Shown: piece by piece, positions 6,225 to 55,356 of the stretch
Position numbering within the stretch: position 1 is the stretch's first letter
How the letters are laid out: the number at the start of each line of letters is the position of its first letter
Source of the DNA: Bacteroidia bacterium
GTDB lineage: Bacteria > Bacteroidota > Bacteroidia > UKL13-3
Assembly (NCBI GenBank): GCA_049318585.1
Contig: JBMOGB010000001.1
Span: 62,851-126,850, forward strand
Direction: 5' to 3'
Length of the DNA: 64,000 nucleotides
Position numbers and translations under genes: made by a program
The notes under the pieces: generated by a model
The model's database searches: none
What the model saw: the letters and a program-made list of their open reading frames with translations, nothing else
Told to the model about the DNA's origin: nothing

Positions 6225-6740
6225 ATGATAATTTCAATTCAATCAAGCATGCGCAATTTTATAAAGCAAGCGCAAGAAAATAAAGCAACCGCAAAATATA
6301 ATCATGCAATTAAGCCAACGGTTCAAGATATGACATTGGCAGTTAATGAACTTAACGCGGCAAAATCAGAAATATTACCAGATCAATCAGCAGCCCTTGC
6401 TTGTTTAAATAAAATTATAAGTTATTTGAATTGGTTCAAAAATATTGGAAACACAAACACAAATGCGGCTGGTAAAAAAAGTCTAATTCCAAATGATGAA
6501 GAATTTAAAGCGCTTATTAGAACTGGATTATTTGGAACAAGTTTTATAGAATCATTAGCCGCCATATTAACTATTGGGGATAAAATACCTCAATTTAATA
6601 AAGAATTATCAAAAATTAATAAAAAAGCGGATGGAAACGAAAAAACATTTAGGACAGATGACAAAAGTGATTTTGAAGATTTGCGAGTTAGATTTCATCG
6701 GTATATAAAAGAAATAAATGCAGATTTTAAAAAAAACTAA
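6225..6740 (+). CDS. hypothetical protein, N-terminal paralogue of 5714..6193
   Basis: 171-aa ORF that ends in an A8 run (6729-6736) and overlaps the next ORF by 23 nt. Confidence 0.6.
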   Translation: MIISIQSSMRNFIKQAQENKATAKYNHAIKPTVQDMTLAVNELNAAKSEILPDQSAALACLNKIISYLNWFKNIGNTNTNAAGKKSLIPNDEEFKALIRTGLFGTSFIESLAAILTIGDKIPQFNKELSKINKKADGNEKTFRTDDKSDFEDLRVRFHRYIKEINADFKKN

Positions 6741-7206
6741 ATTAGAAGAACTAAAAGATTTAGATATTAAAGATTCTTATGAGGCTAGTCCCCTTTTAAT
6801 TCATTTTGATAGATATTTTATAAAATTTATAGAAATAAGCAAAAATTTACGATCAAAAACAAATATTAAAACAATAACTCTTATAGATCAAAATAAAGCG
6901 GATAAGTTATTTGCTGATAATTTTCAAATAAATTTACTTATAATTTTAGAAGAAGAAAGAAAACGAATGAAAAATGAAGGTTATTATAGTAGACCTTTAT
7001 TTGATCAAAGAAAATCTTTAGTTAGAAGACTTGTGGATTTAAACGTTTATGTTGATACTAAAACAAAATCAGCAACGAAAAAAGCAATAAACGCTTGCTT
7101 AAAACTGCAAGAAATAGCCAACCAATTACAAATTGATGTCGATGAGGCTATAGAAGAACATCATGCATCATTTACAAACCCATATAGACAAGCGAATAAA
7201 AGGTAA
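6718..7206 (+). CDS. hypothetical protein (source of the duplicated fragment at 8900..8990)
   Basis: 162-aa ORF. Nucleotides 7034-7085 (DLNVYVDTKTKSATKKA) recur almost identically at 8900-8951. Confidence 0.55.
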   Translation: MQILKKTKLEELKDLDIKDSYEASPLLIHFDRYFIKFIEISKNLRSKTNIKTITLIDQNKADKLFADNFQINLLIILEEERKRMKNEGYYSRPLFDQRKSLVRRLVDLNVYVDTKTKSATKKAINACLKLQEIANQLQIDVDEAIEEHHASFTNPYRQANKR

Positions 7207-38948: not shown

Positions 38949-38953
38949 ATACT

Positions 38954-39310
38954 ATGGCATCATTATTACCTAATCAATTGCAACAAATTTTGGATATTAA
39001 CTCCAAGTCAGTTGAGATATATCTAGAGGTTAATAATCAATATGAAGATATAATAAAACTTTTAGAAGATATAAAAGAAAAAGAAAATTATAATATTTTG
39101 CATATTGAAAGAATAAATGAAAAAATTAAAATAATTGAAGAAAAGGTAAAAGAACAACATACTGCTCTCTTAGATAAAAGTCAAGAAACTATAACTTTAA
39201 TAACTGCCATTGATAAGTCTATGCATAAACAAAATTGGATTTTATCAAGCTCATTAGTAGCATTAGCATTAGCAATCGTAGCAAAAATGTTTGGTGTTAG
39301 TATGCCATAA
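38954..39310 (+). CDS. coiled-coil protein with C-terminal transmembrane anchor
   Basis: 118 aa with a heptad-like charged N-terminus. C-terminal WILSSSLVALALAIVAKMFGV. Confidence 0.5.
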   Translation: MASLLPNQLQQILDINSKSVEIYLEVNNQYEDIIKLLEDIKEKENYNILHIERINEKIKIIEEKVKEQHTALLDKSQETITLITAIDKSMHKQNWILSSSLVALALAIVAKMFGVSMP

Positions 39311-39324
39311 TAAGGAAGTAAGAT

Positions 39325-39663
39325 ATGCCTTGTGGTCCAATATTATATTATGATCAAGGACAATTAGCAACAATAGTCCTTCATACAAATAAAAATTCAG
39401 AAAATCCAATAATTCAAAAAATAATTGCTCCAAATATGAATGCGTTGCAAGGGTTCCCAGCCCCTATGCATAAATTGGACAAAGATGATAATGAAATATT
39501 TGTGGCAAGATTTAAATTGCCAACTGGGTCTTCTAATTGTGGTACCTATCTTTGTTTTATAAAATGGGAAGAAATTTCAGGGGATAATAAAATCGAATGT
39601 AAAGATGTATATACAGTAATAGTTAGACAACAAAGCTCAAGCATTTCAGTTTCTGGTATTTAA
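39325..39663 (+). CDS. hypothetical protein
   Basis: 112-aa ORF with SD-like aaggaagt upstream. Its stop overlaps the convergent fcl stop (TTAA). Confidence 0.5.
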   Translation: MPCGPILYYDQGQLATIVLHTNKNSENPIIQKIIAPNMNALQGFPAPMHKLDKDDNEIFVARFKLPTGSSNCGTYLCFIKWEEISGDNKIECKDVYTVIVRQQSSSISVSGI

Positions 39664-40592: not shown

Positions 40593-40640
40593 AATATGTC
40601 TATATATCTCGTAATCTTAACACATTAAAATAGGAGATAT

Positions 40641-41546
40641 ATGGTTATAAAAAATAGAGGAGAAACAATCGGACAAGGACAAGTAGTTCAACTTCGATCT
40701 TTATTCAAAGTAAATGGCGTCCCAACTGATCTAAATGATTTTCCAAGCGTTCAACTTATCGAACCAAGCACATCGCTTTATATGAACTATACTACAGCTG
40801 GTGTGTATAAAATTGATACTGGTATCTACGGTTTCAATTTTGAGGTTCCTGTTAATGCTCAACAAGGTACATGGCAAGATAATTGGCAAGGTGCCATGGG
40901 GCTTTCTAATGAATTAGTGTCGGCTTCTTTCTCTTTTACTGTCCTAAATATAACAATCCCAAGCGCCCTTATTGAGGATGGATATGAACAATTAGGAGAT
41001 GAACCTGTCGTTGTCCTAACCCAAGCGGCTATCCATAATATAAATCAATTAGTTCATATATTGCGCAGAAGATTGCAAAGCTCAGGCTGGCATCTCTCTA
41101 CAGATTCATTCGGCAATCAAACTAGAGAAAATTGCGATATCTTTAGTATAGATGAATTGTTTTCTTTTCTCTGTTCCTCTCTATCAGAATTTAATAGTAC
41201 CCCTCATTTTACTGGTTTTAGCTGGGAAAACGAAGTGGTTATAGAGTTTAAAGATATTATTATTGAAGGCGCTTATATTATGTCAGTATCTAGCAAAGGT
41301 CTTATCGAAAAAGGTAGAGAATTTACTGTTACTGACAATGGACTCTCATTCCAACCACCAGCAGTTGCCGATTTTCTTAATTCTCAAATGAGCAGTATGT
41401 TAAGCCCTTATAGAGAGAAATTAAAATATATTAAGGCGAACTTCAAACCGTCACCTCTGGGCTTGGGGACGATTCGCATAGCTGCAGTCTCACCGCAAAT
41501 AATGAGACTCCGCCACAGACGCCAAATGCAATTTCCAATTCAATAA
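40641..41546 (+). CDS. GC-richer putative virion structural protein
   Basis: SD taggagat lies upstream. 301 aa with beta-rich composition. Its G+C resembles the capsid genes. No specific family recognised. Confidence 0.45.
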   Translation: MVIKNRGETIGQGQVVQLRSLFKVNGVPTDLNDFPSVQLIEPSTSLYMNYTTAGVYKIDTGIYGFNFEVPVNAQQGTWQDNWQGAMGLSNELVSASFSFTVLNITIPSALIEDGYEQLGDEPVVVLTQAAIHNINQLVHILRRRLQSSGWHLSTDSFGNQTRENCDIFSIDELFSFLCSSLSEFNSTPHFTGFSWENEVVIEFKDIIIEGAYIMSVSSKGLIEKGREFTVTDNGLSFQPPAVADFLNSQMSSMLSPYREKLKYIKANFKPSPLGLGTIRIAAVSPQIMRLRHRRQMQFPIQ

Positions 41547-41617
41547 TATTTATATTTTGTTATTTATACAATATATAATTATGCGCAACGTTATAGCATA
41601 ATCAAATAGGTAATATT

Positions 41618-42790
41618 ATGGCAAAATATAAAATAGAATATTTACAAGAAGTGGCAAAAAAAAGAGGTGGAAGTTGTTTATCAACAAAATATATTAATAA
41701 TAAACAAAAAATATTATGGGAATGTTATTTCGGGCATAAATGGGAAACATCATTTGATCTTATTAACAATAGAGGTTCTTGGTGCCCATATTGTTCTGCT
41801 GGATTATATGAAAGAATATGTAGAATTTATTTTGAGCAAATATTTGGATATCAATTTAAAAAAATAAAACCTTTTTGGTTAGTAAATTCTCGAAATAATA
41901 TAATGGAACTTGATGGATATTGTGAAGAATTAAAACTTGCCTTTGAACATAATGGGCAGCAACATTATAATGAAATTAATATATTTAAAACAAATCTTGA
42001 AATTCGGAAAGAAGATGATAATATTAAAATTAAATTATGTAAAGAATATAGCATTACTTTAATTATAATACCAGAATTATATAGATATACGAAATTACAT
42101 GAATTAAAAGATTTTATAAAAAAAGAATTAATTGATAATAATTTTATGATTCCAGGAAATTATGATGATGTAAAAATTGATTTATCAAAAGCTTATGTAA
42201 AAGAAGATTTAAAAAGATTAGAAACAATGCACAAATATGCTATAAGCAAAAATGGTATGCTTTTGTCTGATGAATATTATGGCTGGCATACTCATCATAA
42301 ATGGGAATGTAATAGTTGTAATTATATTTGGAGTATGTCACCACATGGTTTAATTAATGGCAAACGTTGGTGCCCTAAATGTTCTAAAAAAGCAAAATCA
42401 ACTATAGAAGAAATGCATGAAATAGCAAAAAATCGTAATGGAAAATGCTTATCACAAAAATATATTAATCATCATACAAAATTAGAATGGGAATGTAATA
42501 AATGTAATTATATATGGACAGCAGTACCATTTTCAATTAAGAATAACAATACTTGGTGCCCAAAATGCGCAAAACAAATTAAACCGACAATAACAGAAAT
42601 TGAAAATTTAGCTAATGAAAAAAATGGTAAATGTTTAAATCCACAAGAATATAAAAATGCACATAGTAAATTAACTTGGGAATGTAATTCTTGTAGCAAA
42701 ATATGGAAATCTTCTTATTCTAATATAAAGAGAGGTAGATGGTGCCCTAACATATTACATAGAAAGCGCAACAAGCTAAAAAGATTATAA
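41618..42790 (+). CDS. Zn-ribbon / Vsr-DUF559-like endonuclease family, order 1 ZnR - nuclease - 3 ZnR
   Basis: RGGSCLSTKYINNKQKILWECYFGHKWE...WCPYCS, then IMELDGYCEELKLAFEHNGQQHY, then three C..C...WCPKC units. The last unit lacks its second CxxC. Confidence 0.8.
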   Translation: MAKYKIEYLQEVAKKRGGSCLSTKYINNKQKILWECYFGHKWETSFDLINNRGSWCPYCSAGLYERICRIYFEQIFGYQFKKIKPFWLVNSRNNIMELDGYCEELKLAFEHNGQQHYNEINIFKTNLEIRKEDDNIKIKLCKEYSITLIIIPELYRYTKLHELKDFIKKELIDNNFMIPGNYDDVKIDLSKAYVKEDLKRLETMHKYAISKNGMLLSDEYYGWHTHHKWECNSCNYIWSMSPHGLINGKRWCPKCSKKAKSTIEEMHEIAKNRNGKCLSQKYINHHTKLEWECNKCNYIWTAVPFSIKNNNTWCPKCAKQIKPTITEIENLANEKNGKCLNPQEYKNAHSKLTWECNSCSKIWKSSYSNIKRGRWCPNILHRKRNKLKRL

Positions 42791-42793
42791 CAA

Positions 42794-44131
42794 TTATTTT
42801 TTACATTCTCTACAATAAGGGAATCTTTTCAATTGTTTATATTCTCTTAAGAATTCATGTCCAAGGTTGCAACAAAACTTTAATTTTTCATGTTGATTGA
42901 TATAATCTTTTGACAAGCAGGCTAACCCAATTTTATTGGCAAATAATTTAATATCATCTATATTTTTTTTGTTTGTAGAACAGCATTGTTTGCACCAATA
43001 TCCACTTTTAATATAAGTGGGTTTTGATTTGAATACATGTTGATTTTTACATTTGCAGATAATAATATCATTTGAAGAAACTATATCTTCAGATATAATC
43101 TCACCGCCTTTTTCTTTTGCAATATTTTGTAATTTTATAAAATATTCTTTATTTTTATTATTAATATATGCTTTATTATAGTCGATAATAATTTCATCAA
43201 AATTATTTGGAAGTTCTATATTTTGTTTAACGCATTCTAATTTTATAATATTTTTCAAATCTTGTATTTTTGTTTTTTCAAATAGCTGATTAATCGTTAT
43301 TAATTTCACATTATGTTTTTTGCATAATATATTTTTTGTTTTATCATCATTTAATCTTTTTATAAAAGAATCATTTGACATTTTAAATTTCTTAACTATA
43401 GAATAATGTTGTTTACCATTATGTTCAAAAGCAATATTTAGTTCATTGCAAAATCCATCAAGTTCCATTATAAACCCATCTGAATTGACAAGCCATGGCG
43501 GTTTAATTTTTGGAAATTTGTTATTAAATATTGTTTCAAAATATATTCTTGTTATTTCTTCTGATATGGAAGTTTTGCAATAAGGGCACCATTGTCCTTT
43601 CTTTATTTTATTAGGAGCCATTATAAAATTATGATTATTAAAACATTTAAATTTTAGTTTATCGTGATTATTATTACATATGATGGATAATAATTCTCCG
43701 CCTCTATTTGTTGCAATGGATTTTATGTCTTCAATTTTAGTTTTGCCTAAATTAGAGCAATAAGGGCACCAATGATTTGATAATATTACGTCAATAGAAG
43801 TTTCCCATTTGTGGTTATTTTTGCATTCAAATTGATATTTGCTTTTTTTTGTGGAATATTTTATTGATAATAACTTGCCTTTTTTATTTTCTGCAATGCT
43901 ATTTATGTAAGATAATATATATTTTTCTCTGCATTTTTCGCATTTTATTTTATTTGATGTTTTTTCTATGTTTCCTTTCGCGGTTGTTTTGTAAATTATT
44001 GTTTTGATTGGTTTATCAAATATATAATTGCAAGATTTGCATTTCCATTTTGCGATGGCATTAAGATTTAAAAATAATGGGATTAAATTATTTTCATTGG
44101 CAATATCCGCAATATTATATTGAATGCCCAT
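42794..44131 (-). CDS. Zn-ribbon / Vsr-DUF559-like endonuclease family, order 3 ZnR - nuclease - 2 ZnR
   Basis: IMELDGFCNELNIAFEHNGKQHY core flanked by units such as KKGKLLSIKYSTKKSKYQFECKNNHKWE..HWCPYCS and KGGEIISED..CKCKNQHVF..YWCKQCC. Confidence 0.8.
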   Translation of the reverse strand: MGIQYNIADIANENNLIPLFLNLNAIAKWKCKSCNYIFDKPIKTIIYKTTAKGNIEKTSNKIKCEKCREKYILSYINSIAENKKGKLLSIKYSTKKSKYQFECKNNHKWETSIDVILSNHWCPYCSNLGKTKIEDIKSIATNRGGELLSIICNNNHDKLKFKCFNNHNFIMAPNKIKKGQWCPYCKTSISEEITRIYFETIFNNKFPKIKPPWLVNSDGFIMELDGFCNELNIAFEHNGKQHYSIVKKFKMSNDSFIKRLNDDKTKNILCKKHNVKLITINQLFEKTKIQDLKNIIKLECVKQNIELPNNFDEIIIDYNKAYINNKNKEYFIKLQNIAKEKGGEIISEDIVSSNDIIICKCKNQHVFKSKPTYIKSGYWCKQCCSTNKKNIDDIKLFANKIGLACLSKDYINQHEKLKFCCNLGHEFLREYKQLKRFPYCRECKK

Positions 44132-44333
44132 TATTGGATATATAACTTTTATTAAAACTACATATAAGTTTGAGGGTCACAATTATAACAAATAAGATTA
44201 TCATTTTCAACCATTTTTTTATTTTTGGCTTTTCTAGTTCTGATTTGTCTACTTTGTAAAGCAGTTTGCAGTTATCATTCTGTAAGTAAAAGGGCATGTG
44301 CATAAAAGCAGGGCGGACAAACATATTTAACAA
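44115..44333 (-). CDS. possible small membrane protein
   Basis: 72-aa ORF filling the gap between two minus-strand genes. Hydrophobic MIILFVIIVTLKLI. No clear SD. Confidence 0.25.
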   Translation of the reverse strand: MLNMFVRPAFMHMPFYLQNDNCKLLYKVDKSELEKPKIKKWLKMIILFVIIVTLKLICSFNKSYISNNGHSI

Positions 44334-44335
44334 TG

Positions 44336-45127
44336 CTAAATATTATGACGCAATTCCATACATTTAGGGCACATATCACGCCCTTTATTATCTTTTACTG
44401 CTTTAGTGGGTTTAACATACTCTGAGCAATATTCGCACATTATAAATATTTTCTTTTTACAAGAATGGCAATAGTCTTCTCCATTTATAGCTGCACTTTT
44501 ATAAGATTCATCGCCACAATTTATACAAGATGTAAATGTTGAATCATAACAAAAAGAGCAAAAATTATCGCCATCATTAGAGATTTTAGAATCTTTTATT
44601 AATATTTGAGATGAGCATCCAGTACAATTTCTATATTTGTCATAATAGCATCTTGAACAATAAATTATACCTTCGATTGATAATATAGTATCATCTTCAT
44701 TTATTAGTTTTTTACAATTTGAGCATTTATCACTGCCTTCTGTTGGCAATTTTGCATCATCATATGCTTTATGACTATAATCTTCATAATATTTTATTAA
44801 ATTTGTCCCGGTTATTACCACCTTCACGCCTAATTTTTCACTCAATATATTTTTAAATCCTTCCAAAACTACAGCAGAATTATCTGGATAGACTTGTTGA
44901 ACAAATAAAACATCTTCTTCTGTTTCAACATTTTTAACAATCCAAACAGCGCTTCTATAAATCATTTTGTCGCCACGACCTTGGAAATCTGATCCATCTG
45001 TAATATAAATAACTCCTATGTTTTTAGAAATACAAGACCCAAGTGTTCCTAAATTATGGGCTTGTCCAAGCCAAGCTGATCCAGGGCGCATATCTTGACA
45101 ACTATCCCATTCGCTTCTAGATGACAT
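44336..45127 (-). CDS. C-terminal part (W-x-SC domain + CxxC zinc-ribbon array) of a gene split at an A8 run
   Basis: MSSRSEWDSCQDMRPGS..GTLGSCISKNIGVIYITDG..MIYRSAVWIV is colinear with residues ~215-560 of the 45746..47431 product. Contains 8 CxxC pairs. Confidence 0.7.
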   Translation of the reverse strand: MSSRSEWDSCQDMRPGSAWLGQAHNLGTLGSCISKNIGVIYITDGSDFQGRGDKMIYRSAVWIVKNVETEEDVLFVQQVYPDNSAVVLEGFKNILSEKLGVKVVITGTNLIKYYEDYSHKAYDDAKLPTEGSDKCSNCKKLINEDDTILSIEGIIYCSRCYYDKYRNCTGCSSQILIKDSKISNDGDNFCSFCYDSTFTSCINCGDESYKSAAINGEDYCHSCKKKIFIMCEYCSEYVKPTKAVKDNKGRDMCPKCMELRHNI

Positions 45128-45129
45128 TC

Positions 45130-45735
45130 CTAATATATCAAAATGTTTTGTGCTAAATACAATATGTAATCCACTATCAATTTTTTTTCTTTTACTCTAT
45201 TCATCCATTCTTTATGACCAGACAGTTCTTCGAATTTAAGAATATTATTAATATCACCATCAAATAATGATTTATAATTTCCTACTAATATTTTATATTT
45301 TGAAATAGTATTATTATAAAATCTACTAAATTTTGGTTTGCCATGCCCAATTTGTATTTCATTATTTCTTAATACTTTCATAAAATAATTTTGGTTATCA
45401 ACTTTAAATTTAAATTCTTTAACTAAAGATAATAATTTATCTAATTCTTGTGCTGTTTTATCATTTTTATCAACCCTTATTATTTCATGTCTTAAATAAA
45501 CAGGGCTAAGTTGATTATAAATCATATCAAATTGATATTTAATTTCATGCATAAATTCTTTTTCATTAGTTGTTGGACTATCTAGTCTATCTTCAACTGG
45601 AACTTTAAAATCAACAAGCCTTGGATCTTTTTGGATAAAGTCTATTCCATCAAGCTTTCTTTTATGTTTTTCTGGAATCCAATCTGGATAATCAATCGCA
45701 AATTTATAAAAGAAATTTATTGCTTTTTTTAACAT
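45130..45735 (-). CDS. N-terminal part (leader + helical domain) of the split gene
   Basis: MLKKAINFFYKFAIDYPDWIPEKHKRKLD.. is colinear with residues 1-200 of the 45746..47431 product. It leaves register exactly at the A8 run and stops 17 codons later (TAG). Confidence 0.7.
   Translation of the reverse strand: MLKKAINFFYKFAIDYPDWIPEKHKRKLDGIDFIQKDPRLVDFKVPVEDRLDSPTTNEKEFMHEIKYQFDMIYNQLSPVYLRHEIIRVDKNDKTAQELDKLLSLVKEFKFKVDNQNYFMKVLRNNEIQIGHGKPKFSRFYNNTISKYKILVGNYKSLFDGDINNILKFEELSGHKEWMNRVKEKKLIVDYILYLAQNILIY
45181..45188 (-). promoter_or_regulatory. A AAA AAA slippery heptamer: candidate -1 frameshift or transcriptional slippage site
   Basis: Coding strand reads GTA AAA GAA AAA AAA TTG. A -1 slip on A_AAA_AAA continues ATT GAT AGT GGA.. 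= KKIDSGLHIVFSTKHFDILGMSSRSEW, matching the paralogue's KKIDDGLQFVFTTKHFDILGMSSRSEW. Confidence 0.6.
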
Positions 45736-45745
45736 ATGACCTTAC

Positions 45746-47431
45746 TTATATAGCTGTAGTTTGATATAGTTCTGGGTTACAGGCATAACAAATATTATTA
45801 CTACTTTTCCATTTTTCTATATCTGGTTCTTCTATTTTATATAATAAGCCGCATTCATTACATTGATCAATTGAGTCCTCAGTTTCTGTACATTCATCAC
45901 AAACATATTTAAAAATAATATTATTATCGCGCAATAAATGTACTTTATTAGCATCTTCTTCGTCAAGATATTTGTTGCATAAACATTCTTCATAATCATC
46001 TATACAGCCTTTGCATACTTGTTTTATAGTATCTCCGCTCTTATCAATTACAGGACAAACATCCTTCTTCAAAAAAGGTTCTTCGCAATCTTTGCACACA
46101 AAACAATCATTTTCAAAACAATTTGGACAATAATTTTCACAATCAACTGTCATTTCATCTTTTATAAATTTATCACACTTATCACATTTAGAATATCCTT
46201 TGCGTTTTGCGCAATCTATACAATAATAATATTCATCGTACTCATAATCGCGAACTAGTACTATTTCATCATTTTCCCGTGCTCCGTTACAATTTTCGCA
46301 ATAACTATATGATGCAGCAAAGCAACTCTCACAATATAAATCATTAGCATATTCCACTATATTTTGATCATTTAATGCGCCATTACAAATGCAACAGTTT
46401 TCGCCTCCTTTTACTGATAAATCAGCATCATCATATGCTTTATGTTCATAATCCTCATAATATTTTATTAAATCTGCCCCGTTTATTACAATCTCCATAC
46501 CCAATTTTTCTTTTAATATATTTTTAAAACCTTCTTTAACTACAGCAGAATAATCTGGGTAAACTCTTTGAACGAATAAAACGTCTTCATCTGTATCCAT
46601 ATCTTTTACAATCCAGACGGAGCTTCTATAAATCATTTTTTCGCCGCGTCCTTCATAATCTGATCCATCTGTAATATATATAATTCCTATATTTTTAGAG
46701 ACACAAGAGCCAAGCGTTCCTAAATTAAAATCTGATGTTAGCCAAGTTGACCCTGGACGCAAATCTTGGCAGCTTTTCCATTCGCTTCTTGATGACATTC
46801 CTAATATATCGAAATGTTTAGTTGTAAATACGAATTGTAAACCATCATCAATTTTCTTTTCATTTATTCTATTCATCCAGTCTTTATAGCCAGGTATATC
46901 TTCAAACATTTTTGGGGCTAAAACGTGACGAAATATGTCCTTATATTTTTCTATATTTTTATATCTTTCTAAAATTTTGATATATTTTGAAATAGTTTTA
47001 TTATAAAATTTAGAAAAAGTTAAATCGGCAGTACCAATTTTAATGTTATTATCTCTTAATACTTTTATAAAATAACTTTCAATACACACTTTATCAGAAA
47101 AATCTATTGCTAATGACGTTAATTTTTTTAATTCTTCAACTGTTTTGTCGTTTTTATCAATTTCTTTTATAATATCTGTATATTCACTTGAATTAAGAGT
47201 TTTAATTAAACTAAAATTATATCTAATTGCTGGCATTAATTCTTTTTCATTAGATGTTGGAATATTTAGTCTATGTTCAACTGGAACTTTAAAATCAACA
47301 AGCCTTGGATCTTTTTGGATAGAGTCTATTTTATCAAGCTTTCTTTTATGTTTTTCTGGAATCCAATCTGGATAATCAATCGCAAATTTGTAAAAGAAAT
47401 TTGCTGCTTTAAATATATTCATTATGTTCAT
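45746..47431 (-). CDS. leader-tagged protein: helical N-domain + W-x-SC domain + CxxC zinc-ribbon array (unsplit paralogue)
   Basis: 561 aa. IFKAANFFYKFAIDYPDWIPEKHK leader. SRSEWKSCQDLRPGS..GSCVSKNIGIIYITDG. C-terminus has >10 CxxC pairs with LIM-like spacing. Confidence 0.7.
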   Translation of the reverse strand: MNIMNIFKAANFFYKFAIDYPDWIPEKHKRKLDKIDSIQKDPRLVDFKVPVEHRLNIPTSNEKELMPAIRYNFSLIKTLNSSEYTDIIKEIDKNDKTVEELKKLTSLAIDFSDKVCIESYFIKVLRDNNIKIGTADLTFSKFYNKTISKYIKILERYKNIEKYKDIFRHVLAPKMFEDIPGYKDWMNRINEKKIDDGLQFVFTTKHFDILGMSSRSEWKSCQDLRPGSTWLTSDFNLGTLGSCVSKNIGIIYITDGSDYEGRGEKMIYRSSVWIVKDMDTDEDVLFVQRVYPDYSAVVKEGFKNILKEKLGMEIVINGADLIKYYEDYEHKAYDDADLSVKGGENCCICNGALNDQNIVEYANDLYCESCFAASYSYCENCNGARENDEIVLVRDYEYDEYYYCIDCAKRKGYSKCDKCDKFIKDEMTVDCENYCPNCFENDCFVCKDCEEPFLKKDVCPVIDKSGDTIKQVCKGCIDDYEECLCNKYLDEEDANKVHLLRDNNIIFKYVCDECTETEDSIDQCNECGLLYKIEEPDIEKWKSSNNICYACNPELYQTTAI

Positions 47432-47565
47432 GTAAATATATGCAACTATTATTATATTATTAATATGAAAATATATTAAGACTATTTTATTAATTGCTAT
47501 AAAAGCGACAACCTAAACTATTTGAATTACAACATATAATTAATTATATATGAAGGAAATTATTA

Positions 47566-48111
47566 ATGAGTTCAACTAACCGAGGGGCTGTAAGAAATAA
47601 TAACGATTACTATGCAACTCCTGATTGGGTAACAAACCTTATATTGCCTATTTTAAAATGGAACGCCCAAGATATAGTTATGGATCCAAGCGCTGGTGAC
47701 GGGGCTATTTTGCGCGCTGTAGAGGCATATGGGAAACAATCTAAGCTTTGTGGATTTGAAATTGATCCAATCTTAGCAAAACAAAGTAATGTTATATGTG
47801 CAAATGCATTAACTATTGAAACTTGGGGAAAACCAAATAAAATTATCATGAATCCTCCTTTTTCTTTGGCTCAAGAATTTTGTGAACGCGCAATATCTGA
47901 AGTTTCTAAAGGTGGAGAAGTAGCCTCTCTTATGCGTTTGGCAATGTTAGAAAGTAGAAAGCGAGAACAATTTTGGAATAATAATCCGTGCGACATATAT
48001 GTTTTAGGTAAACGACCATCATTTACTGGTGGCAAAACTGATTCGACAGCTTATGCTTGGTTTGTTTGGGGGTCAGAAAGAGGAAACCATTGGTGGAGAT
48101 TGGACAAATAA
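47566..48111 (+). CDS. small N6-adenine-type DNA methyltransferase (orphan)
   Basis: SD gaaggaaat lies upstream. VMDPSAGDGAIL (motif I) and IIMNPPFSLAQEF (motif IV, NPPF). 181 aa. Confidence 0.7.
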   Translation: MSSTNRGAVRNNNDYYATPDWVTNLILPILKWNAQDIVMDPSAGDGAILRAVEAYGKQSKLCGFEIDPILAKQSNVICANALTIETWGKPNKIIMNPPFSLAQEFCERAISEVSKGGEVASLMRLAMLESRKREQFWNNNPCDIYVLGKRPSFTGGKTDSTAYAWFVWGSERGNHWWRLDK

Positions 48112-48112
48112 G

Positions 48113-49249
48113 TCACAATGCTGCGAAATTAATATTAATTGAATCTATATTTAATTTTGGAAATTTTAGTTTCATAAAATCAATTAAATTATTTGGTTTA
48201 AAATTATTATCAAAATATGGAATAACGACTAATTTAATATTATTTTCTTTGCATTTTTGGAATTTAAATTCGTCTCTTTCTTTTTGTTCCTTTAGTTTTT
48301 GTTCAGTTATTCTAAATTCTTTTACAACTTCATAATGCTGCCTTCCTTGATATTCAAAAGCAATATCTAACTCATTGCAAAATCCATCAAGTTCTAAATT
48401 CACTTTATGTTTATATTTTAGAAAATTTGGGCGACATTTTATAAAAGGTTTATTAAAAACTGTTTCAAAAAATAATTTGCAACATCGCTCTCCATATCCT
48501 CGCCTGCAATCTGGGCACCATCTATTATTTTTTACATTATTAAAATTTGAAGTAAAAATATGATTCTTTTCGCATTGCCAGTTCATAATGGTTCTATTAT
48601 TAATATAGTTTTCTGATAGGCATTTTGCGCCTGGGTGATTATCTTGCATCCACGACTTAATATTATCTAAAGATAATCTCATTGATTCATTATAACATTT
48701 TTTGCACCAATTTTTATTCACTATATGACTGAAAGAATTTTCCCAAATATGATTATTTTTACATTGCCATTTCATTTTTTCATTAACATTTTTGTAACTT
48801 TCCGATAAGCATTTAGCCCCTGCATGATTATTATTAATCCAATCAATTATTTTTGTTATAGAATAATTATTATTTTCTTTATGGCAAGTGGGGCACCATG
48901 TTCCATATTTTATGTGGTTAAAAGTAGCTTTCCAAGAATGTTGTTTTTCACATTGCCAAATCATTTGTTCATGTGGACCAATATATTCTTTTGATAAGCA
49001 AGTAGCTTCTGGATGATTAATCTGTAACCATTTATTAATTTTACCAAGCGAATTATTTCTTTTTTGTTTGTAGCAAATTGGGCAGTTTTTGTTTTTCTTA
49101 ATGCAAGAAAATTTTGTGGTGAAAATATGATTATTGTTACATTGCCAAGTCGCTTCAGCTCTTATATTTCTATATTTTGATATTATTATTATATTTGGGT
49201 TATTAATTATTAACCAATTTTTTACGTCTTCTATATCATTTTTTTTCAT
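48113..49249 (-). CDS. Zn-ribbon array (4 units) + C-terminal Vsr/DUF559-like endonuclease
   Basis: HPGAKCLSENYINNRTIMNWQCEKNHIF...RWCPDCR and similar units, then NLELDGFCNELDIAFEYQGRQHY..KERDEFK. Confidence 0.8.
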   Translation of the reverse strand: MKKNDIEDVKNWLIINNPNIIIISKYRNIRAEATWQCNNNHIFTTKFSCIKKNKNCPICYKQKRNNSLGKINKWLQINHPEATCLSKEYIGPHEQMIWQCEKQHSWKATFNHIKYGTWCPTCHKENNNYSITKIIDWINNNHAGAKCLSESYKNVNEKMKWQCKNNHIWENSFSHIVNKNWCKKCYNESMRLSLDNIKSWMQDNHPGAKCLSENYINNRTIMNWQCEKNHIFTSNFNNVKNNRWCPDCRRGYGERCCKLFFETVFNKPFIKCRPNFLKYKHKVNLELDGFCNELDIAFEYQGRQHYEVVKEFRITEQKLKEQKERDEFKFQKCKENNIKLVVIPYFDNNFKPNNLIDFMKLKFPKLNIDSININFAAL

Positions 49250-49289
49250 AATTATGATGTTGTCCTATTATTATATTCGTATTTTTTGT

Positions 49290-51029
49290 ATGAAAAAGTT
49301 TTCAATTGAAGATTTAAAATCTTTTGCAAGTGATGAAACGGATAAAACAGAAGTTCCTCAATGGCCAATAAGTAGTTTCAAATCTTTGGGTGAGTTTGGA
49401 GCTGGCGATAAACGGCATAAAGGAAAACACGACGGTATAGATTTAGCAGCCCCAGCTAGCACCCCAGTATACCCAATGCTTAGTGGTAAAGTAACAAAAG
49501 TAAGTTCGGAATCTAGACTTTGGGTAGAAGGAGATCCAAAGCAAGGCAATGCACTAACGATAGTTCATGATAATGGCATGAATACATTTTATGCCCATCT
49601 TGAAAAAGTAACAGTTAGTGATGGGACATTGGTAACTCAAACCACGCAAATTGGTACGAATGGAATGTCTGGTAATGCAAGAAATACAAGTCCGCATGTA
49701 CATTTTGAAGTAAGGAATAAAGGCAATCCAGTAAATCCAAGGAGCGTGATTGGCAAAGCTGATTCTGAAATTAAACCAAAAGCAAAGGCGCCAAAAACTA
49801 AAGTAGAACCAACAACTACAACTGCTCCTATAACTACAGATGTGCTTGAAACTACAACTGTGCCTGAAACTACAGTTACTTTAACCGCCCCTATAAAACC
49901 AGAAGCTAGATTAAAAATATTAAGAGAGCTTAACAAGTTTGGTTCTCCATATAGAGAGCCAGCTATTATTGAAGGAGATAGCAGTCCATTGGATATTTCA
50001 GATAATAATAAAAAAATTCTTATTAATGAAATATTAGCAAGATATAACAAAAGAGAAATATGGAATTATGTTATAGTTTTAGAAAAAGAACTTGGCACAT
50101 TAAATTCTGCAAATAAAAAAGAAAAGCAGAAAATAATTATAGAAATCTTTGAAAAAATTGATAATAAATTAAAATCATTAAAGTCATTATATCAAGAGTT
50201 ATCAAGAATAGTGCCTGAACATCATTTGATTTTTGAATTACATACTATAGTAAATAAATTAAATGAAAAATTTGAAATGTTGAGTTCTATTTGCCACAAA
50301 AAAATTATACTTGGGATTGGTTTTGATAAAAAAATTGAAGAATTCAATAATATAGTTTTAGAATATATTCACATCGTAAAAACTGAAATAAAATCAATAA
50401 TTTCAAAATTTGGAACATTAACCAGAGCATTATCAACTAAAGATATTATTAATAGAAGGAAACAATTAGCTGAAGATTATACTCCAAAACAATCTATTAT
50501 AGATGTTTATATTAATAATTATCAGGGTTTATTTCATGGATCATACCTTTATGTATATGTTGATTTTAAATATATAAAAGAAAAAATTATTAAATTAAAA
50601 GAAGATATTGAATACTATATGAAAAATAAAGATTGGAATGAATCATATAATCGTAGTAATTTTGTCCCATATATACATTCATTTAAGAATTCATTAAATG
50701 AAAAATTAGAACTTATAGATAAACGCGCTAATAAAATCATACAAATTACTGAAGGTAAAGGCTCTTTAATTGAATATTTTAATCGCACATATAATGAGGC
50801 AAAAATATTAATAGAGGATATATTAAAAGAAACAGCTAATTTTGATAATGATCGTGATTCTTGGTTTGTTTATAGCTTTGGTAATATATTAAAAAGATAT
50901 ATTATTTTATTAAAAAAATTAGAAGAAAAAATGGAAGAATTAGAAAATTGCAGTAATGCTATATACCAAAAAGTATATAAAGAATATTATGATAATTACG
51001 GCAAACATAAACATCATAAATTGCATTAA
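49290..51029 (+). CDS. M23-family (LytM-type) peptidoglycan metallopeptidase with long helical C-terminal extension
   Basis: HKGKHDGIDLAAP (HxxxD), NTFYAHL and SPHVHFEV (HxH). ATG 49290 (or 49254) avoids overlap with the divergent gene (the track starts at 49134). Has a Thr/Pro linker and a ~380-aa K/E/I-rich tail. Confidence 0.75.
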   Translation: MKKFSIEDLKSFASDETDKTEVPQWPISSFKSLGEFGAGDKRHKGKHDGIDLAAPASTPVYPMLSGKVTKVSSESRLWVEGDPKQGNALTIVHDNGMNTFYAHLEKVTVSDGTLVTQTTQIGTNGMSGNARNTSPHVHFEVRNKGNPVNPRSVIGKADSEIKPKAKAPKTKVEPTTTTAPITTDVLETTTVPETTVTLTAPIKPEARLKILRELNKFGSPYREPAIIEGDSSPLDISDNNKKILINEILARYNKREIWNYVIVLEKELGTLNSANKKEKQKIIIEIFEKIDNKLKSLKSLYQELSRIVPEHHLIFELHTIVNKLNEKFEMLSSICHKKIILGIGFDKKIEEFNNIVLEYIHIVKTEIKSIISKFGTLTRALSTKDIINRRKQLAEDYTPKQSIIDVYINNYQGLFHGSYLYVYVDFKYIKEKIIKLKEDIEYYMKNKDWNESYNRSNFVPYIHSFKNSLNEKLELIDKRANKIIQITEGKGSLIEYFNRTYNEAKILIEDILKETANFDNDRDSWFVYSFGNILKRYIILLKKLEEKMEELENCSNAIYQKVYKEYYDNYGKHKHHKLH

Positions 51030-51041
51030 AATATTTCACAT

Positions 51042-51353
51042 TCAATTTTCTTCAAAAATATCAAAATTAAATATATAATCTTCATTATTATTGTCATTAA
51101 TAAAATCTAAAATATTTTCACCTTTAACCGTTTGCAATATATAATTATTTAAATTCCCTTCATCTTCTTCTTTAAACAGAGTTGCTTTAAACATTGTTTG
51201 TTTTAATATTTCATTTTTTATGATGCTTTTTACAAGACTGCATTGAAAGTTAGCATCTTCTGTTTCATTAATTGAATTATATATCTTTTTATATTCTTGA
51301 TATTTTTGATTGTAACTATAAGTTTTCATAACATTATTTTTCGTATTCTTCAT
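51042..51353 (-). CDS. hypothetical acidic protein
   Basis: 103-aa ORF immediately downstream of, and overlapping by 20 nt, the HEAT-family gene on the same strand. Confidence 0.45.
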   Translation of the reverse strand: MKNTKNNVMKTYSYNQKYQEYKKIYNSINETEDANFQCSLVKSIIKNEILKQTMFKATLFKEEDEGNLNNYILQTVKGENILDFINDNNNEDYIFNFDIFEEN

Positions 51354-53718
51354 GAAAATAAGCGTGGAGGTCTCGTTTTATATCTTCATCAACTGTAGGA
51401 TTATCGTATAATATTTTATTAACTTTATTATTGTTTAATAAGGCTAATTCAAATTGAACATTATAAGGAATTTTTGTGTTATAAGCCATATTTTCTAATA
51501 TTTCCTGCGGAAGATTTTTGTCTAATAATTCCATCATTTGCTCTTCGGTTCCATGCAAAGAAATATATTCATCAGAAAGTTCTGATGTTGGAAAACTTTG
51601 TTTTCTTTGTTTTAATTTTACATCTTCTAAAGTCTCTACTTCTCGTTCTCTTTTTTGCTCTCGTTCTTGTTCTTGTTCTTGTTCTTGCGGAGGTTGCCAT
51701 TGTGTGGACTGCCAAAATGCCGCCTGATCTGGTGGTATCTGTGTTGTATTAACGTTTTGGTGTCCAGAAATATAATCATCTGGTTCTTTTTCGGATAAAA
51801 ATTTATAAGTTTCAGCAGCGGCTTCTCTAACTTGTTGATCTTTATCTTCCATTAGTTGTTTAGCAATTAATTCTGGGATAAAATCATTTTTACTTAAAGC
51901 AAGCCTTACTTCTACAGCTTTATGGTTTATTAAAATTTCATATACTTTTTTATACTCAATTTCATCTCGTATTTCTTTAGCTATTCCAGCTATAACAGAG
52001 TCATTTTCATACTTTAAAAATAATGAAAATAAATCAAGATAGTCACTTACATATGGAGTTACTGCTTTTATTTTTTTTACGTCACTAATTTTATCCTTTA
52101 TTTTTAAATATAAGTCTTCATCTAATCTTTCATTAGTTAATATCTTATATAATAGATTTTCATCTTTACTTTCTGATAAATAATTTAAAAATTTATATGA
52201 TTGAATTGTAGAAGCAATTTTTATTACATTCAAATCTGGGCATAATTCTAATATAACTTTAATACATTTTTCATCTATATTATTACAATTTAGCATTTCA
52301 TATATATTAGAACTATGTAATCTGCCAATATCTTTTTTTATTTCAATTAATATAGCGTATAATAAATCAGAAGGCATAGGACTATACCTTAGTTTATCTA
52401 TGAAGTCCGAAACATTACTATTATTAACAATTTTTATTTTTTCTTCTAAAGGTATAAAATTATTATTTATAACATTTACGCAACACGCTGAATAATTCAA
52501 CATTTTTTTATTTCGAAGGCTTATTAAGAAATCTATCATTTTAGTATTTACGTGCTTATTTCTAAATATATCATGGATATATTTAGGGTCACTTTTAACT
52601 AAAAAACCAAATAAAATATGAGCTGGACAATTATTGTTATACATAAACTCCTCTATATCTTTATATTTTTTATAAAGAAAGTCTAAAGCATTAGTTGGAG
52701 TATTATTGTTTGTAATTATAGACATAATTACTTCATGAGGCAAATCATTTTTTGTGCTTAAATATAATAAAGTATTAGGGTCCGTTTCTTTATATACCAT
52801 ATGATTTTTTTTTGTTATGCTTATATTTAGGCTTCTAAGATATTGATATTTTTGTTCTTTTGTCTCTGCTTCAATATTTGCAGCTGGATTTATAAGTTTT
52901 TTATATCTATTTGGAATTCTTATAGTTTTCAAATGTTCTTTAGGCTGCACTAACAAAAAATAATTAGCTTCTTCATCGCTTAACATTTCTTTATTAAAAT
53001 AAACAATCATATTTGGAGGCATTATTTCTGCGTCTTTTTTTATAATATCTTTTATAAGAGAATACCCAGGGCAATCTTCTGGGTTTTTCTTTTTATCAGG
53101 AGCATCCCATCCTAAAATTCTAGTTACCTTACAGTCTAAATCTCTTTCAACTGAAAAAGCAATTTTATAATTTGGGTCTGAACTTCTCAACGTCTTATCA
53201 ATTAAGAAATATAATACTACATTATTTGTTTGATAATATTCATAATGAGTCGCTGCTTGTTCAGTTATACACCATTTGGTTCCAGAACCAAATTTAATAC
53301 TTGCCATTTTAGTATCTGGTCTAACCATGGTATATCTTTCATCTTCATATAAGACCTTCGCATCTAAATCTTTAGTATCTACTACTCTTCTTTGTTTAAG
53401 CTGTAAAGTTTCTAATTTAGCATTTAGAGTTTCTAAAGAATCATAATTATTAATATCTCTATCTATAATCTCTAAATTTTTGGATAATCTATCAAATGTT
53501 TTTAAAGCTTCGATTATATCTTGAAGGACAAATCCATCATTTATTTGTTTAGCTCCCCAATCCAAATATTTAGGTTTTACTTGCTTATTTAATTCATCAA
53601 TTTCTTTAGATATGTTTGGGTATTTTTCTTTAGTTTCTCTTAATCCAGCTATTTTAAACAAATTAAAGCATATATTTTCGTATAGAACTGCTAGTTTTGT
53701 AATGGTTAATGAATGCAT
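51334..53718 (-). CDS. leader-tagged TKWCITEQ-domain + HEAT/LRV-like repeat protein, copy 3 (inverted)
   Basis: Start is probably ATG 53718 (MHSLTITKLAVLYENICFNLFKIAGLRE; the track extends to 53838). GSGTKWCITEQ. C-terminal YISLHGTEEQMMELLDKN..MAYNTKIPYNVQFELALLNN..DEDIKRDLHAYFHEEYE is nearly identical to copies 1 and 2. Confidence 0.65.
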   Translation of the reverse strand: MHSLTITKLAVLYENICFNLFKIAGLRETKEKYPNISKEIDELNKQVKPKYLDWGAKQINDGFVLQDIIEALKTFDRLSKNLEIIDRDINNYDSLETLNAKLETLQLKQRRVVDTKDLDAKVLYEDERYTMVRPDTKMASIKFGSGTKWCITEQAATHYEYYQTNNVVLYFLIDKTLRSSDPNYKIAFSVERDLDCKVTRILGWDAPDKKKNPEDCPGYSLIKDIIKKDAEIMPPNMIVYFNKEMLSDEEANYFLLVQPKEHLKTIRIPNRYKKLINPAANIEAETKEQKYQYLRSLNISITKKNHMVYKETDPNTLLYLSTKNDLPHEVIMSIITNNNTPTNALDFLYKKYKDIEEFMYNNNCPAHILFGFLVKSDPKYIHDIFRNKHVNTKMIDFLISLRNKKMLNYSACCVNVINNNFIPLEEKIKIVNNSNVSDFIDKLRYSPMPSDLLYAILIEIKKDIGRLHSSNIYEMLNCNNIDEKCIKVILELCPDLNVIKIASTIQSYKFLNYLSESKDENLLYKILTNERLDEDLYLKIKDKISDVKKIKAVTPYVSDYLDLFSLFLKYENDSVIAGIAKEIRDEIEYKKVYEILINHKAVEVRLALSKNDFIPELIAKQLMEDKDQQVREAAAETYKFLSEKEPDDYISGHQNVNTTQIPPDQAAFWQSTQWQPPQEQEQEQEREQKREREVETLEDVKLKQRKQSFPTSELSDEYISLHGTEEQMMELLDKNLPQEILENMAYNTKIPYNVQFELALLNNNKVNKILYDNPTVDEDIKRDLHAYFHEEYEK

Positions 53719-53772
53719 ATATAAATATAATATTATTATTAGGAACTCATCATTCAATATAACATTATTTAA

Positions 53773-55356
53773 ATGAGTAACATGAGTTGCATTTTTCCTA
53801 AACCAATATTCCCTTCTGTATTTTGGATTGGACTCCAAAAAGTTCTTCCTTTAAAAGATGGTTACTCAGTGTATCTATCTTGGAAGTACGCTATACCAAG
53901 TATTCAATCAAATACCATTGGTTATAATATATATTTTTCAACAAATATAAATGATGTTTTTACAGAAGGGTCAAAGTATTTTACACAAGAGTTATTTTTA
54001 ACAATAAATAGATTTGCTCCAGGAGATGTTCAATATTTTGCAGTACGCAGTATGGAATACGACCCTATAATTTTAAATTATACTGCATTACCAATTGCGT
54101 CGCAAGCAGAGAATGCATACACTTATCCAGAAACATTATTGACTTCTGATATTGATTCTATACAACTTAATATTCCAGTTATAGATGCCTCTGAATTTCC
54201 TTCTTTTGGTATAATAAAATTGGGTATAGAACTAATGAAGTATTCTAGTATTGACTATGCAAATAATATATTTCAAATTGATACTGATTGTAGAGGCTAT
54301 TATAATTCAGTTGCAACTTCGCATAATGCAGATGGCTATGATGGGTACAAATATCAAGATCCATTTATAAAATATTTTGCTGGATTTGAAGACCAAAACA
54401 ATATAATATGCGAAGCTGAACCTAAAATAGAATATCCTGAATATCCTTATGTTGAAAGCGATGGTTATAAACAAGTTATAAAAGATTTATTAACTACAGA
54501 TTTAGCAGCGTCTGATGAAACAAATGCTGGATTTCCGCCTTATGATTATAGCGGATTTCATCAAACAAATATTATGGATTATTTTTCTGGACATTGTATC
54601 GGTAGCTATGCAGGAGGTGAATATGGATGTTCAGACGGGTATAAAACTCGTGGATTAAATTTGCAACTTATAAACAGTCAAAGACTTGAAATTTTATTAC
54701 AAGTAACTGGAGAACCTGTAATTTTACTAAGAAGAAAATGGGCTGGTATTAGATGTAATTGTTTTAGAATGAATTTAGAAAATGCAGAAGGAAGATGCAA
54801 AAATTGTTTTAGCGTTGGATTTGTAGGCGGATATGATCAATATTATTACCAAAAAAGAAAAGATGGTAGAATATTAATGCGATTTGAGCCTACAGCGGAT
54901 GATCTTGCTGTAAAGTCTCATGGATTGCAGCAAACATTTGTTCCAAATTGTTGGACTCTTGTAGAACCAGCAATAAAAGATAGAGATATTATAATAAGAT
55001 TTAATGAAGATGGAACTGAAGAATTTAGATATGAAGTAATTAATGTTACAAGGAATAGACTTTTATTCTCATTGTCTGGTTCTCAAAAAATGCAAATATA
55101 TCGAGTTGATAAAACTGATATTATTTATCAATGGAGAGCTATAAGAAGTACAGCTGATAATCCAGTTAAATTAAACACAACGATGGGAGAGTTAAGAGGA
55201 TACGGTCCTCATTTCCATATAGTAACAATTACTGATGGGATAATCAATCTATCTCAAATTAATTCAACTACATCAACTATGGCTTCACATAATCACCCAA
55301 TAATTAATGGAATAGTACAAGAAGTATTAGGGCATAGTCACGAAATTACTTTTTAG
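53773..55356 (+). CDS. putative tail/baseplate fibre-type structural protein with internal zinc knuckle and C-terminal HxH triplet
   Basis: GIRCNCF..(11)..CKNCFSVGFVGGYD. C-terminal GPHFHIV, ASHNHPI and LGHSHEI (3x HxH). Divergent from the HEAT-family gene and upstream of the tailspike block. Confidence 0.5.
   Translation: MSNMSCIFPKPIFPSVFWIGLQKVLPLKDGYSVYLSWKYAIPSIQSNTIGYNIYFSTNINDVFTEGSKYFTQELFLTINRFAPGDVQYFAVRSMEYDPIILNYTALPIASQAENAYTYPETLLTSDIDSIQLNIPVIDASEFPSFGIIKLGIELMKYSSIDYANNIFQIDTDCRGYYNSVATSHNADGYDGYKYQDPFIKYFAGFEDQNNIICEAEPKIEYPEYPYVESDGYKQVIKDLLTTDLAASDETNAGFPPYDYSGFHQTNIMDYFSGHCIGSYAGGEYGCSDGYKTRGLNLQLINSQRLEILLQVTGEPVILLRRKWAGIRCNCFRMNLENAEGRCKNCFSVGFVGGYDQYYYQKRKDGRILMRFEPTADDLAVKSHGLQQTFVPNCWTLVEPAIKDRDIIIRFNEDGTEEFRYEVINVTRNRLLFSLSGSQKMQIYRVDKTDIIYQWRAIRSTADNPVKLNTTMGELRGYGPHFHIVTITDGIINLSQINSTTSTMASHNHPIINGIVQEVLGHSHEITF

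What the first reader, a model, noticed from the sequence alone, without database searches (positions are those of the whole stretch)
44336..45735. Canonical A AAA AAA -1 frameshift heptamer joins two ORFs into the exact counterpart of the neighbouring 561-aa paralogue
Seen (minus strand):
- ..AGA GTA AAA GAA AAA AAA TTG ATA.. stops at TAG 17 codons later.
- Slipping -1 on A_AAA_AAA (45181-45188) reads ATT GAT AGT GGA TTA CAT.. = KKIDSGLHIVFSTKHFDILGMSSRSEW. This runs into ORF 44336..45127.
- The product is residue-for-residue colinear with KKIDDGLQFVFTTKHFDILGMSSRSEW of 45746..47431.

Established: X XXY YYZ heptamers such as A AAA AAG (dnaX) drive programmed -1 frameshifting. A-runs also support transcriptional slippage and sequencing error.

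Inference: the site could yield two products. One would be a leader + N-domain-only protein and the other the full-length fusion. Alternatively it is a fresh frameshift mutation or an artefact.
Basis: partly seen in the sequence, partly recalled or inferred. Interest (0 to 1): 0.6.

Follow-up and report, generated by a model that had tools for sequence, protein, structure and literature searches.

The report
Fresh poly-A frameshift splitting a phage gene
One of two side-by-side copies of an uncharacterised jumbo-phage gene is split by the loss of a single A from a run of nine, a recent strain-specific mutation and not a built-in frameshift signal, because a 98%-identical strain from other lake samples still has all nine As and an unbroken gene.

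Summary
On the minus strand an A8 run (45181-45188) separates ORF 45130..45735 (201 aa) from ORF 44336..45127 (263 aa). A -1 slip on A_AAA_AAA gives a 466-aa protein that runs parallel to the 561-aa neighbour through the N-domain and core.

It is not a conserved recoding site.
- Contigs from two runs of another lake study (about 2% nucleotide divergence) carry A9, so the gene is in frame there.
- A more distant orthologue reads GAA AAA AAG ATA in frame.
- The family has about 218 representative proteins. The 11 aligned here are single unbroken chains through this position; the rest were judged only from match spans.

A8 appears in two runs of the source study. The contig keeps nine A9/T9 runs and is 95% ORF. 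Over 20 kb the two strains differ by only three indels, and this is the only one that breaks a frame. An assembly artefact is therefore unlikely.

There is no downstream RNA structure (z = +0.2 to +1.6). In-frame A_AAA_AAA occurs 98 times in the contig's long ORFs. dN/dS downstream of the site is 0.23 and no second defect exists, so the lesion is young.

Verdict: an ordinary homopolymer deletion in a redundant paralogue. Leaky rescue by slippage is possible but unshown. Low interest.

The parts
45181..45188 (-). A8 homopolymer. Its last seven bases (45187..45181) form an in-frame A_AAA_AAA heptamer. This is the site of the 1-nt deficit compared with A9 in the sister strain.
   Evidence: sequence and frame. 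X3 and X4 contigs carry one extra T behind 45180 on the + strand, while X1 and X2 contigs show no gap.
45130..45735 (-). Upstream ORF of 201 aa. It encodes the helical N-terminal domain (185 residues in the correct frame), then a 16-residue out-of-frame tail and a TAG stop (45130-45132).
   Evidence: Domain boundary from the AlphaFold model of the paralogue (helix 179-188, then strand 196-200).
44336..45127 (-). Downstream ORF of 263 aa counted from ATG 45127. It encodes most of the conserved alpha/beta core (MSSRSEW.SCQD... onward) and a CxxC zinc-ribbon (LIM-like) tail. The frame is open upstream as far as the A-run.
   Evidence: Weak LIM hit. dN/dS of 0.23 against the X3 strain.
45125..45132 (-). 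Stop and start lie side by side: TAG-GA-ATG. The upstream frame's stop is 2 nt before the Met codon of the conserved GMSSRSEW motif, so termination-reinitiation could yield a separate C-terminal fragment.
   Evidence: Sequence. That reinitiation occurs is inference only.
45746..47431 (-). Intact tandem paralogue of 561 aa. It reads GAA AAG AAA ATT in frame at the equivalent position.

Best explanation
This is a real, recent, lineage-specific loss of one A from an A9 tract, the kind of error that replication slippage produces. It lies in one of two tandem paralogues of an uncharacterised jumbo-phage protein made of a helical N-domain, a conserved alpha/beta core and a variable zinc-ribbon tail. 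In this strain normal decoding yields a 201-aa N-domain fragment. The remainder can be made only by chance events: spontaneous -1 ribosome slippage on A_AAA_AAA, RNA polymerase adding an extra A, or reinitiation at the ATG 2 nt after the stop. No dedicated recoding signal is present. The phage probably tolerates the lesion because the neighbouring 561-aa paralogue is intact. Shown: the A8 state, the A9 state in the sister strain, in-frame relatives, the absence of a downstream structure, and past purifying selection on the downstream part. Inferred: replication slippage as the cause, redundancy as the reason for tolerance, and any leaky rescue.
For: 1. Strain comparison. Per-run contigs of X1 (depth 23) and X2 (depth 5.5), both from study P1, show A8. 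X3 and X4, from study P2 and about 2% divergent, show one extra T behind 45180, which is A9 on the minus strand and in frame.
2. Direction of change. The tandem paralogue, the orthologue P0003 in contig L004 (GAA AAA AAG ATA, in frame) and all 11 aligned homologues read straight through. In a library search with about 218 representatives, match spans mostly cross the site within a single protein. In-frame is therefore the ancestral state.
3. Not a general artefact. Contig C1 has 63 homopolymers of 8 or more bases, including nine A9/T9 runs, and 95% of it lies in ORFs of 100 aa or more. Over window 33000-52999 the two strains differ by only three indels: +G at 44173 between long ORFs, a 6-nt in-frame deletion at 51663, and this one.
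4. No recoding signal. The MFE of the 46, 81 and 121 nt downstream is no better than that of shuffles (z = +0.22, +0.59, +1.64). By eye there is no GGAGG-like motif in the 20 nt upstream. The heptamer is abundant in the contig, with 98 in-frame copies.
5. Recency. The window strain and the X3 strain differ by 15 synonymous and 17 non-synonymous changes. dN/dS is 0.25 overall and 0.23 downstream of the site (p = 0.002 against neutrality), and there is no second stop or indel.
6. Bacterial setting. A major head protein (phrog_2522, E = 1e-76) lies at 23639-24703, which places the gene in a tailed phage.
Against: Only assembled contigs could be examined, not raw reads, and contigs hide minority variants. 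An A8/A9 mixture within the X1/X2 population therefore cannot be excluded. The downstream ORF is perfectly intact and under purifying selection, which is also what continued expression through slippage would produce. The site falls exactly at the boundary between the N-domain and the core, so a dnaX-like pair of short and long products would be structurally sensible. In E. coli, C-AAA-AAA without an obvious stimulator gave 25-60% -1 frameshifting in over-expression (PMC1851650), so the lesion may be far from null. The sequencing platform of X1 and X2 is not on record.
Confidence: 0.75

Rival explanations
1. Selected recoding. This strain uses -1 ribosomal frameshifting on A_AAA_AAA, or RNA polymerase slippage on A8, to make a fixed ratio of an N-domain-only protein and the full-length 466-aa protein, as dnaX does with tau and gamma.
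For: The heptamer is in the correct frame, and the -1 frame restores a conserved protein. The site sits at a domain boundary. The downstream ORF is intact with dN/dS of 0.23. A-rich heptamers can shift efficiently in E. coli without obvious stimulators (PMC1851650). The A8 allele is the assembled form in two samples.
Against: The arrangement is not conserved even at 98% nucleotide identity, because X3 and X4 carry A9 in frame. The orthologue and the aligned family members are single ORFs, and wider match spans agree. No downstream structure exists and no upstream SD-like element was seen. A_AAA_AAA is much less shift-prone than A_AAA_AAG in E. coli (review PMC5009743). Efficient bacterial transcriptional slippage is described for runs of 9 or more A/T (PMC5009743), and this run has 8. 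The motif occurs 98 times in frame in this contig.
Confidence: 0.08
2. Assembly or sequencing artefact. The true sequence in the source sample is A9 and one A was lost in base-calling or assembly.
For: Homopolymers are the classic site of such errors. The library type of X1 and X2 is not on record. The window is identical to X1's contigs, so X1 is probably the source and is not independent.
Against: A second run filed under a different sample (X2) was assembled separately and also gives A8. The same contig-building pipeline resolves A9 at this very site in X3 and X4. The contig keeps nine A9/T9 runs and 52 of its 63 long homopolymers lie well inside long ORFs. Only one frame-breaking indel separates the strains in 20 kb. 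The only libraries of the same study whose platform is on record are Illumina.
Confidence: 0.08
3. Contingency (phase-variable) tract. The A8/A9 run is a hypermutable switch that turns this paralogue off and on within phage populations, comparable to the poly-G tracts reported in Campylobacter phage receptor-binding genes (the Campylobacter example is from my own knowledge and was not checked here).
For: Tract length differs between very close strains. A G-to-A change relative to the paralogue created the long run. The gene belongs to a duplicated accessory family with highly variable C-terminal modules.
Against: In the four informative runs A8 and A9 follow the strain background (about 2% substitutions), and there is no sign of mixtures within a run. 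A8-A9 tracts mutate far more slowly than the long poly-G or poly-C tracts of known contingency loci (established knowledge). The contig's 49 other A8/T8 runs sit quietly inside or between genes.
Confidence: 0.07

Closest known systems
Poly(A)-tract frameshift mutations in AT-rich genomes that are partly rescued by polymerase or ribosome slippage (Buchnera/Blochmannia cases and 'compensatory' frameshifting, reviewed in PMC5009743)
   Same: A 1-nt indel lies inside a long A-run of an AT-rich genome (29% GC). The downstream frame is still intact. The run itself is slippery, so some full-length product is plausible.
   Different: This run is A8, shorter than the 9 or more A/T reported for efficient bacterial transcriptional slippage. 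No RNA or protein data exist. An intact paralogue may make any rescue irrelevant.
E. coli dnaX programmed -1 frameshift (A_AAA_AAG with an upstream SD-like element and a downstream stem-loop)
   Same: A lysine-codon heptamer lies in frame, and a short and a long product are conceivable.
   Different: The polarity is reversed: here the shift restores the long form. There is no stimulatory stem-loop and no SD-like element. The arrangement is not conserved in relatives. The last base is A rather than G, which is much less shifty in E. coli (PMC5009743).
Adventitious -1 frameshifting at C-AAA-AAA in the pDEST17 attB1 site (PMC1851650)
   Same: An unselected AAA-AAA sequence allows single-base-deletion mutants to yield correct-sized, active protein. 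This is the best precedent for leaky rescue at this site.
   Different: That case is a high-level expression vector in E. coli. Nothing is known about efficiency in this phage's unknown host.

Membership tests
Programmed -1 ribosomal frameshift site | X_XXY_YYZ slippery heptamer in the zero frame | tested here: met
   The zero frame reads GA[A AAA AAA] TTG. However, 98 such in-frame heptamers exist in the contig's long ORFs.
Programmed -1 ribosomal frameshift site | The -1 frame encodes a meaningful extension | tested here: met
   The -1 frame restores the conserved core and the Zn-ribbon tail, matching 11 homologues in parallel.
Programmed -1 ribosomal frameshift site | A stimulatory element: a downstream stem-loop or pseudoknot 5-9 nt away, or an upstream SD-like sequence | tested here: not met
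   Downstream stretches of 46, 81 and 121 nt fold no better than shuffles (z = +0.22, +0.59, +1.64). No GGAGG-like motif was seen in the 20 nt upstream (by eye).
Programmed -1 ribosomal frameshift site | The two-ORF arrangement is conserved in relatives | tested here: not met
   The sister strain has A9 in frame. The orthologue in L004 is in frame. The 11 aligned homologues are continuous through the site, and the match spans of about 218 representatives mostly cross it within one protein.
Programmed -1 ribosomal frameshift site | Both products are made at a set ratio | not testable with these tools
   No proteomic or reporter data are available.
Programmed transcriptional slippage (Thermus dnaX, IS elements) | A run of 9 or more A/T, or a shorter run with a context element | tested here: not met
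   The run is A8. The threshold comes from PMC5009743.
Programmed transcriptional slippage (Thermus dnaX, IS elements) | mRNA length heterogeneity at the run | not testable with these tools
   The two metatranscriptome runs of the same study hold nothing from this locus.
Homopolymer frameshift mutation (young split gene or pseudogene) | A 1-nt length difference in a homopolymer compared with close relatives that are in frame | tested here: met
   A8 in X1 and X2 against A9 in X3 and X4.
Homopolymer frameshift mutation (young split gene or pseudogene) | The in-frame state is ancestral, judged by outgroups | tested here: met
   The paralogue, the L004 orthologue and the aligned family members are all in frame, and the wider library match spans agree.
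Homopolymer frameshift mutation (young split gene or pseudogene) | Relaxed selection or further lesions downstream | tested here: inconclusive
   No further lesion exists and dN/dS is 0.23. This fits a very recent lesion, but it also fits continued expression.
Phase-variable contingency tract | Tract-length heterogeneity within a population | not testable with these tools
   Only contigs are held for X1-X9, and contigs drop minority variants.

The most novel reading that the evidence does not exclude
The A8/A9 tract might be a functional switch or dosage device. In the A8 strain the phage would deliberately make mostly the free N-terminal domain, plus a small slippage-derived fraction of full-length protein. 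DNA-level slippage would toggle strains between this state and the all-full-length A9 state. That would be a poly-A contingency or recoding locus in a freshwater jumbo phage, acting on one copy of a duplicated accessory gene.
Probability: 0.07. Interest if true: 0.5.

Novelty: already known. Interest (0 to 1): 0.15.

Why it matters
It matters little in itself. A one-base deletion in a poly-A run of an AT-rich phage genome is an everyday event, and the 'canonical heptamer' follows automatically from where the deletion fell. The useful outcomes are practical. The two ORFs should be annotated as one disrupted gene, not as a recoding site or as two genes. The case also shows that cross-sample strain comparison can separate a programmed frameshift from a fresh mutation when no raw reads are available. 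The gene family remains functionally unknown and could be worth a separate look. It has a conserved N-domain and a W-x-SC core, with swappable Zn-ribbon, DUF4116 or M23-peptidase tails, and about 218 representative clusters.

Tried and rejected
- Phage GenBank collection, blastn in distant mode with both genes: no match.
- IMG/VR scan with the paralogue protein: no relative found.
- Exact-pattern scans for the site with a variable A-run length in viral contigs and metagenome contigs: no match. No further strains could be added that way.
- RNA evidence: the only RNA runs are two metatranscriptomes of the same study, and they have no coverage of the locus.
- Runs X5-X9 do not cover the A-run, so only four runs are informative.
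- Function of the protein: Pfam, PHROGs and a PDB sequence profile gave nothing beyond weak LIM-type zinc-ribbon hits. Foldseek with a pLDDT-67 model gave only weak LIM and GNAT-like matches, none at E of 0.001 or below. I therefore do not assign a function.
- Homology between this family and the neighbouring 834-aa repeat protein: rejected (best E = 0.31).
- A second A8 run in the overlap of ORFs 6225..6740 and 6718..7206 was considered as another frameshift. It would need a +1 shift and looks like an ordinary start-in-stop overlap, so it was not pursued.

Full report
**What is there.** On the minus strand the sequence reads AGA GTA AAA GAA AAA AAA TTG ATA GTG. The A8 run lies at window 45181-45188. 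ORF 45130..45735 (201 aa) runs through it and stops at TAG 16 codons later. ORF 44336..45127 (263 aa) lies in the -1 frame. Re-reading one A on A_AAA_AAA joins them into a 466-aa protein. The junction peptide KKIDSGLHIVFSTKHFDILGMSSRSEW matches the neighbouring 561-aa paralogue (45746..47431) at 23 of 27 positions. The paralogue's DNA has GAA AAG AAA ATT where the target has GAA AAA AAA TT, one base fewer. One claim is overstated: the fusion is about 55% identical to the paralogue and runs parallel only over the N-domain and core, and its zinc-ribbon tail is about 95 residues shorter.

**Setting.** The window is part of a 171,750-nt contig of 29% GC (C1 of a 4.9-Mb, 649-contig metagenome bin). 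The contig carries a tailed-phage major head protein (phrog_2522, E = 1e-76, window 23639-24703), an M23 peptidase and several HNH or zinc-ribbon endonuclease-like genes. Decoding is therefore bacterial.

**Is the site conserved?** It is not.
- Per-run contigs were laid on the locus. X1 (depth 23) and X2 (depth 5.5), filed under two samples of study P1, reproduce A8 with no gap.
- X3 and X4, filed under two samples of a different lake study, carry a strain about 2% divergent. It has one extra T behind 45180 on the + strand, which is A9 on the coding strand and an uninterrupted gene.
- After applying the listed X3 differences, the gene translates as one 466-aa ORF. The stretch 45306-45337 is not covered by X3 contigs, and a few differences near contig ends are not listed.
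- A more distant relative (contig L004) has the same tandem pair, of 563 aa and 439 aa. Its orthologue P0003 reads GAA AAA AAG ATA in frame.
- All 11 homologues that were aligned are continuous across the site.
- A full-library search finds about 218 representative clusters. Their listed match spans mostly cross this position within a single protein. These were not aligned individually.
- The in-frame state is therefore ancestral, and the A8 state is a derived 1-nt deletion in the X1/X2 lineage.

**Is it an artefact?** This is unlikely.
- A8 is found in two separately assembled runs, and the same pipeline resolves A9 at this very site in X3 and X4.
- The contig keeps nine A9/T9 runs among 63 homopolymers of 8 or more bases. 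Of these, 52 lie well inside ORFs of 100 aa or more. ORFs of that size cover 95% of the contig.
- Over 20 kb (33000-52999) the two strains differ by hundreds of substitutions but by only three indels. These are +G at 44173 between long ORFs, a 6-nt in-frame deletion at 51663, and the one at 45180.
- Raw reads were not available, so a minority A9 population cannot be excluded.

**Are there recoding signals?** None was found beyond the run itself.
- The 46, 81 and 121 nt downstream fold no better than dinucleotide shuffles (z = +0.22, +0.59, +1.64). The equivalent stretch of the intact paralogue behaves the same way.
- No SD-like element was seen in the 20 nt upstream (by eye).
- In-frame A_AAA_AAA occurs 98 times, and A_AAA_AAG 15 times, in the contig's ORFs of 150 aa or more. 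Any A8 left by a deletion in an A9 run contains the heptamer in two of the three frames. The 'canonical heptamer' therefore follows from where the deletion fell and is not a signal.
- According to the review PMC5009743, A_AAA_AAA is much less shift-prone than A_AAA_AAG in E. coli. The same review describes efficient bacterial transcriptional slippage for runs of 9 A/T.

**Age and consequence.**
- The window strain and the X3 strain differ at 15 synonymous and 17 non-synonymous positions in the gene. dN/dS is 0.25 overall and 0.23 downstream of the site (p = 0.002 against neutrality), and there is no second lesion.
- The deletion is therefore young compared with the roughly 6% synonymous divergence. 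The alternative, which is less likely given the lack of conservation, is that the downstream part is still expressed.
- The AlphaFold model of the paralogue has a mean pLDDT of 67, with the core at 80-95. It places the site between the helical N-domain (helix 179-188) and the first strand of the alpha/beta core (196-200).
- The zero-frame product is thus an N-domain with a 16-residue junk tail.
- The stop TAG (45130-45132) is followed 2 nt later by ATG 45127, so reinitiation could give a C-terminal fragment. That fragment would lack the invariant VF...D strand-helix.
- Some full-length protein may arise by spontaneous slippage. C-AAA-AAA gave 25-60% -1 frameshifting in E. coli over-expression (PMC1851650). 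This is inference only, because the two metatranscriptomes of the source study hold nothing from the locus.

**Protein family.** The function is unknown.
- Pfam and PHROGs give only weak LIM or zinc-ribbon hits to the tail.
- A PDB sequence profile finds nothing.
- Foldseek gives no match at E of 0.001 or below, only weak LIM and GNAT-like similarities.
- Relatives join the same N-domain and core to DUF4116 repeats, and in one 1744-aa protein also to a C-terminal M23 peptidase.

**Verdict.** This is a genuine but ordinary strain-specific homopolymer frameshift in a redundant tandem paralogue of a freshwater jumbo phage. The programmed -1 frameshift reading fails the two tests that could be run, namely conservation and stimulatory elements. 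Confidence is 0.75 for the mutation reading. About 0.08 each goes to selected recoding and to artefact, and 0.07 to a contingency tract.

Noticed in passing
window 6718-6740 (+): An A8 run (6729-6736) lies in the 23-nt overlap of ORFs 6225..6740 and 6718..7206. Joining them would need a +1 shift, and it looks like an ordinary overlap of a start codon with the preceding gene's end.
   Followed up: partly
window 44173 and 51663: These are the only other indels between the window strain and the X3/X4 strain in 20 kb. One is an extra G at 44173, between the long ORFs 42794..44131 and 44336..45127. The other is a 6-nt in-frame deletion in the Gln/Glu-repeat stretch of the 834-aa gene 51334..53838.
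   Followed up: no
protein P0019: This is a 171-aa database protein. Its first ~111 residues match the X3-strain version of this gene's N-terminus. It then continues as a sequence that looks to me (from memory, untested) like a pterin-4a-carbinolamine dehydratase (..EEGHHP..). It is either a chimeric short contig or a recombinant strain.
   Followed up: no
protein P0028; window 49290-51029: A 1744-aa relative joins this family's N-terminal module to DUF4116 repeats and a C-terminal M23 peptidase. In the window a separate M23 peptidase gene with a long helical tail lies about 2 kb away. This may hint at a shared, possibly virion-associated, role.
   Followed up: no
window 41618-42790 (+), 42794-44131 (-), 48113-49249 (-), 57381-58757 (-): Four genes with repeated DUF4379 treble-clef zinc fingers (one also with CapR-homology repeats) surround the paralogue pair. 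The region looks like an accessory, mobile-gene-rich part of the phage genome.
   Followed up: partly
window 33670-38324 and 34742-38912: Contigs in X1 and X3 show joints that skip about 3.9-4.2 kb between the two tandem 770-aa repeat genes.
   Followed up: no
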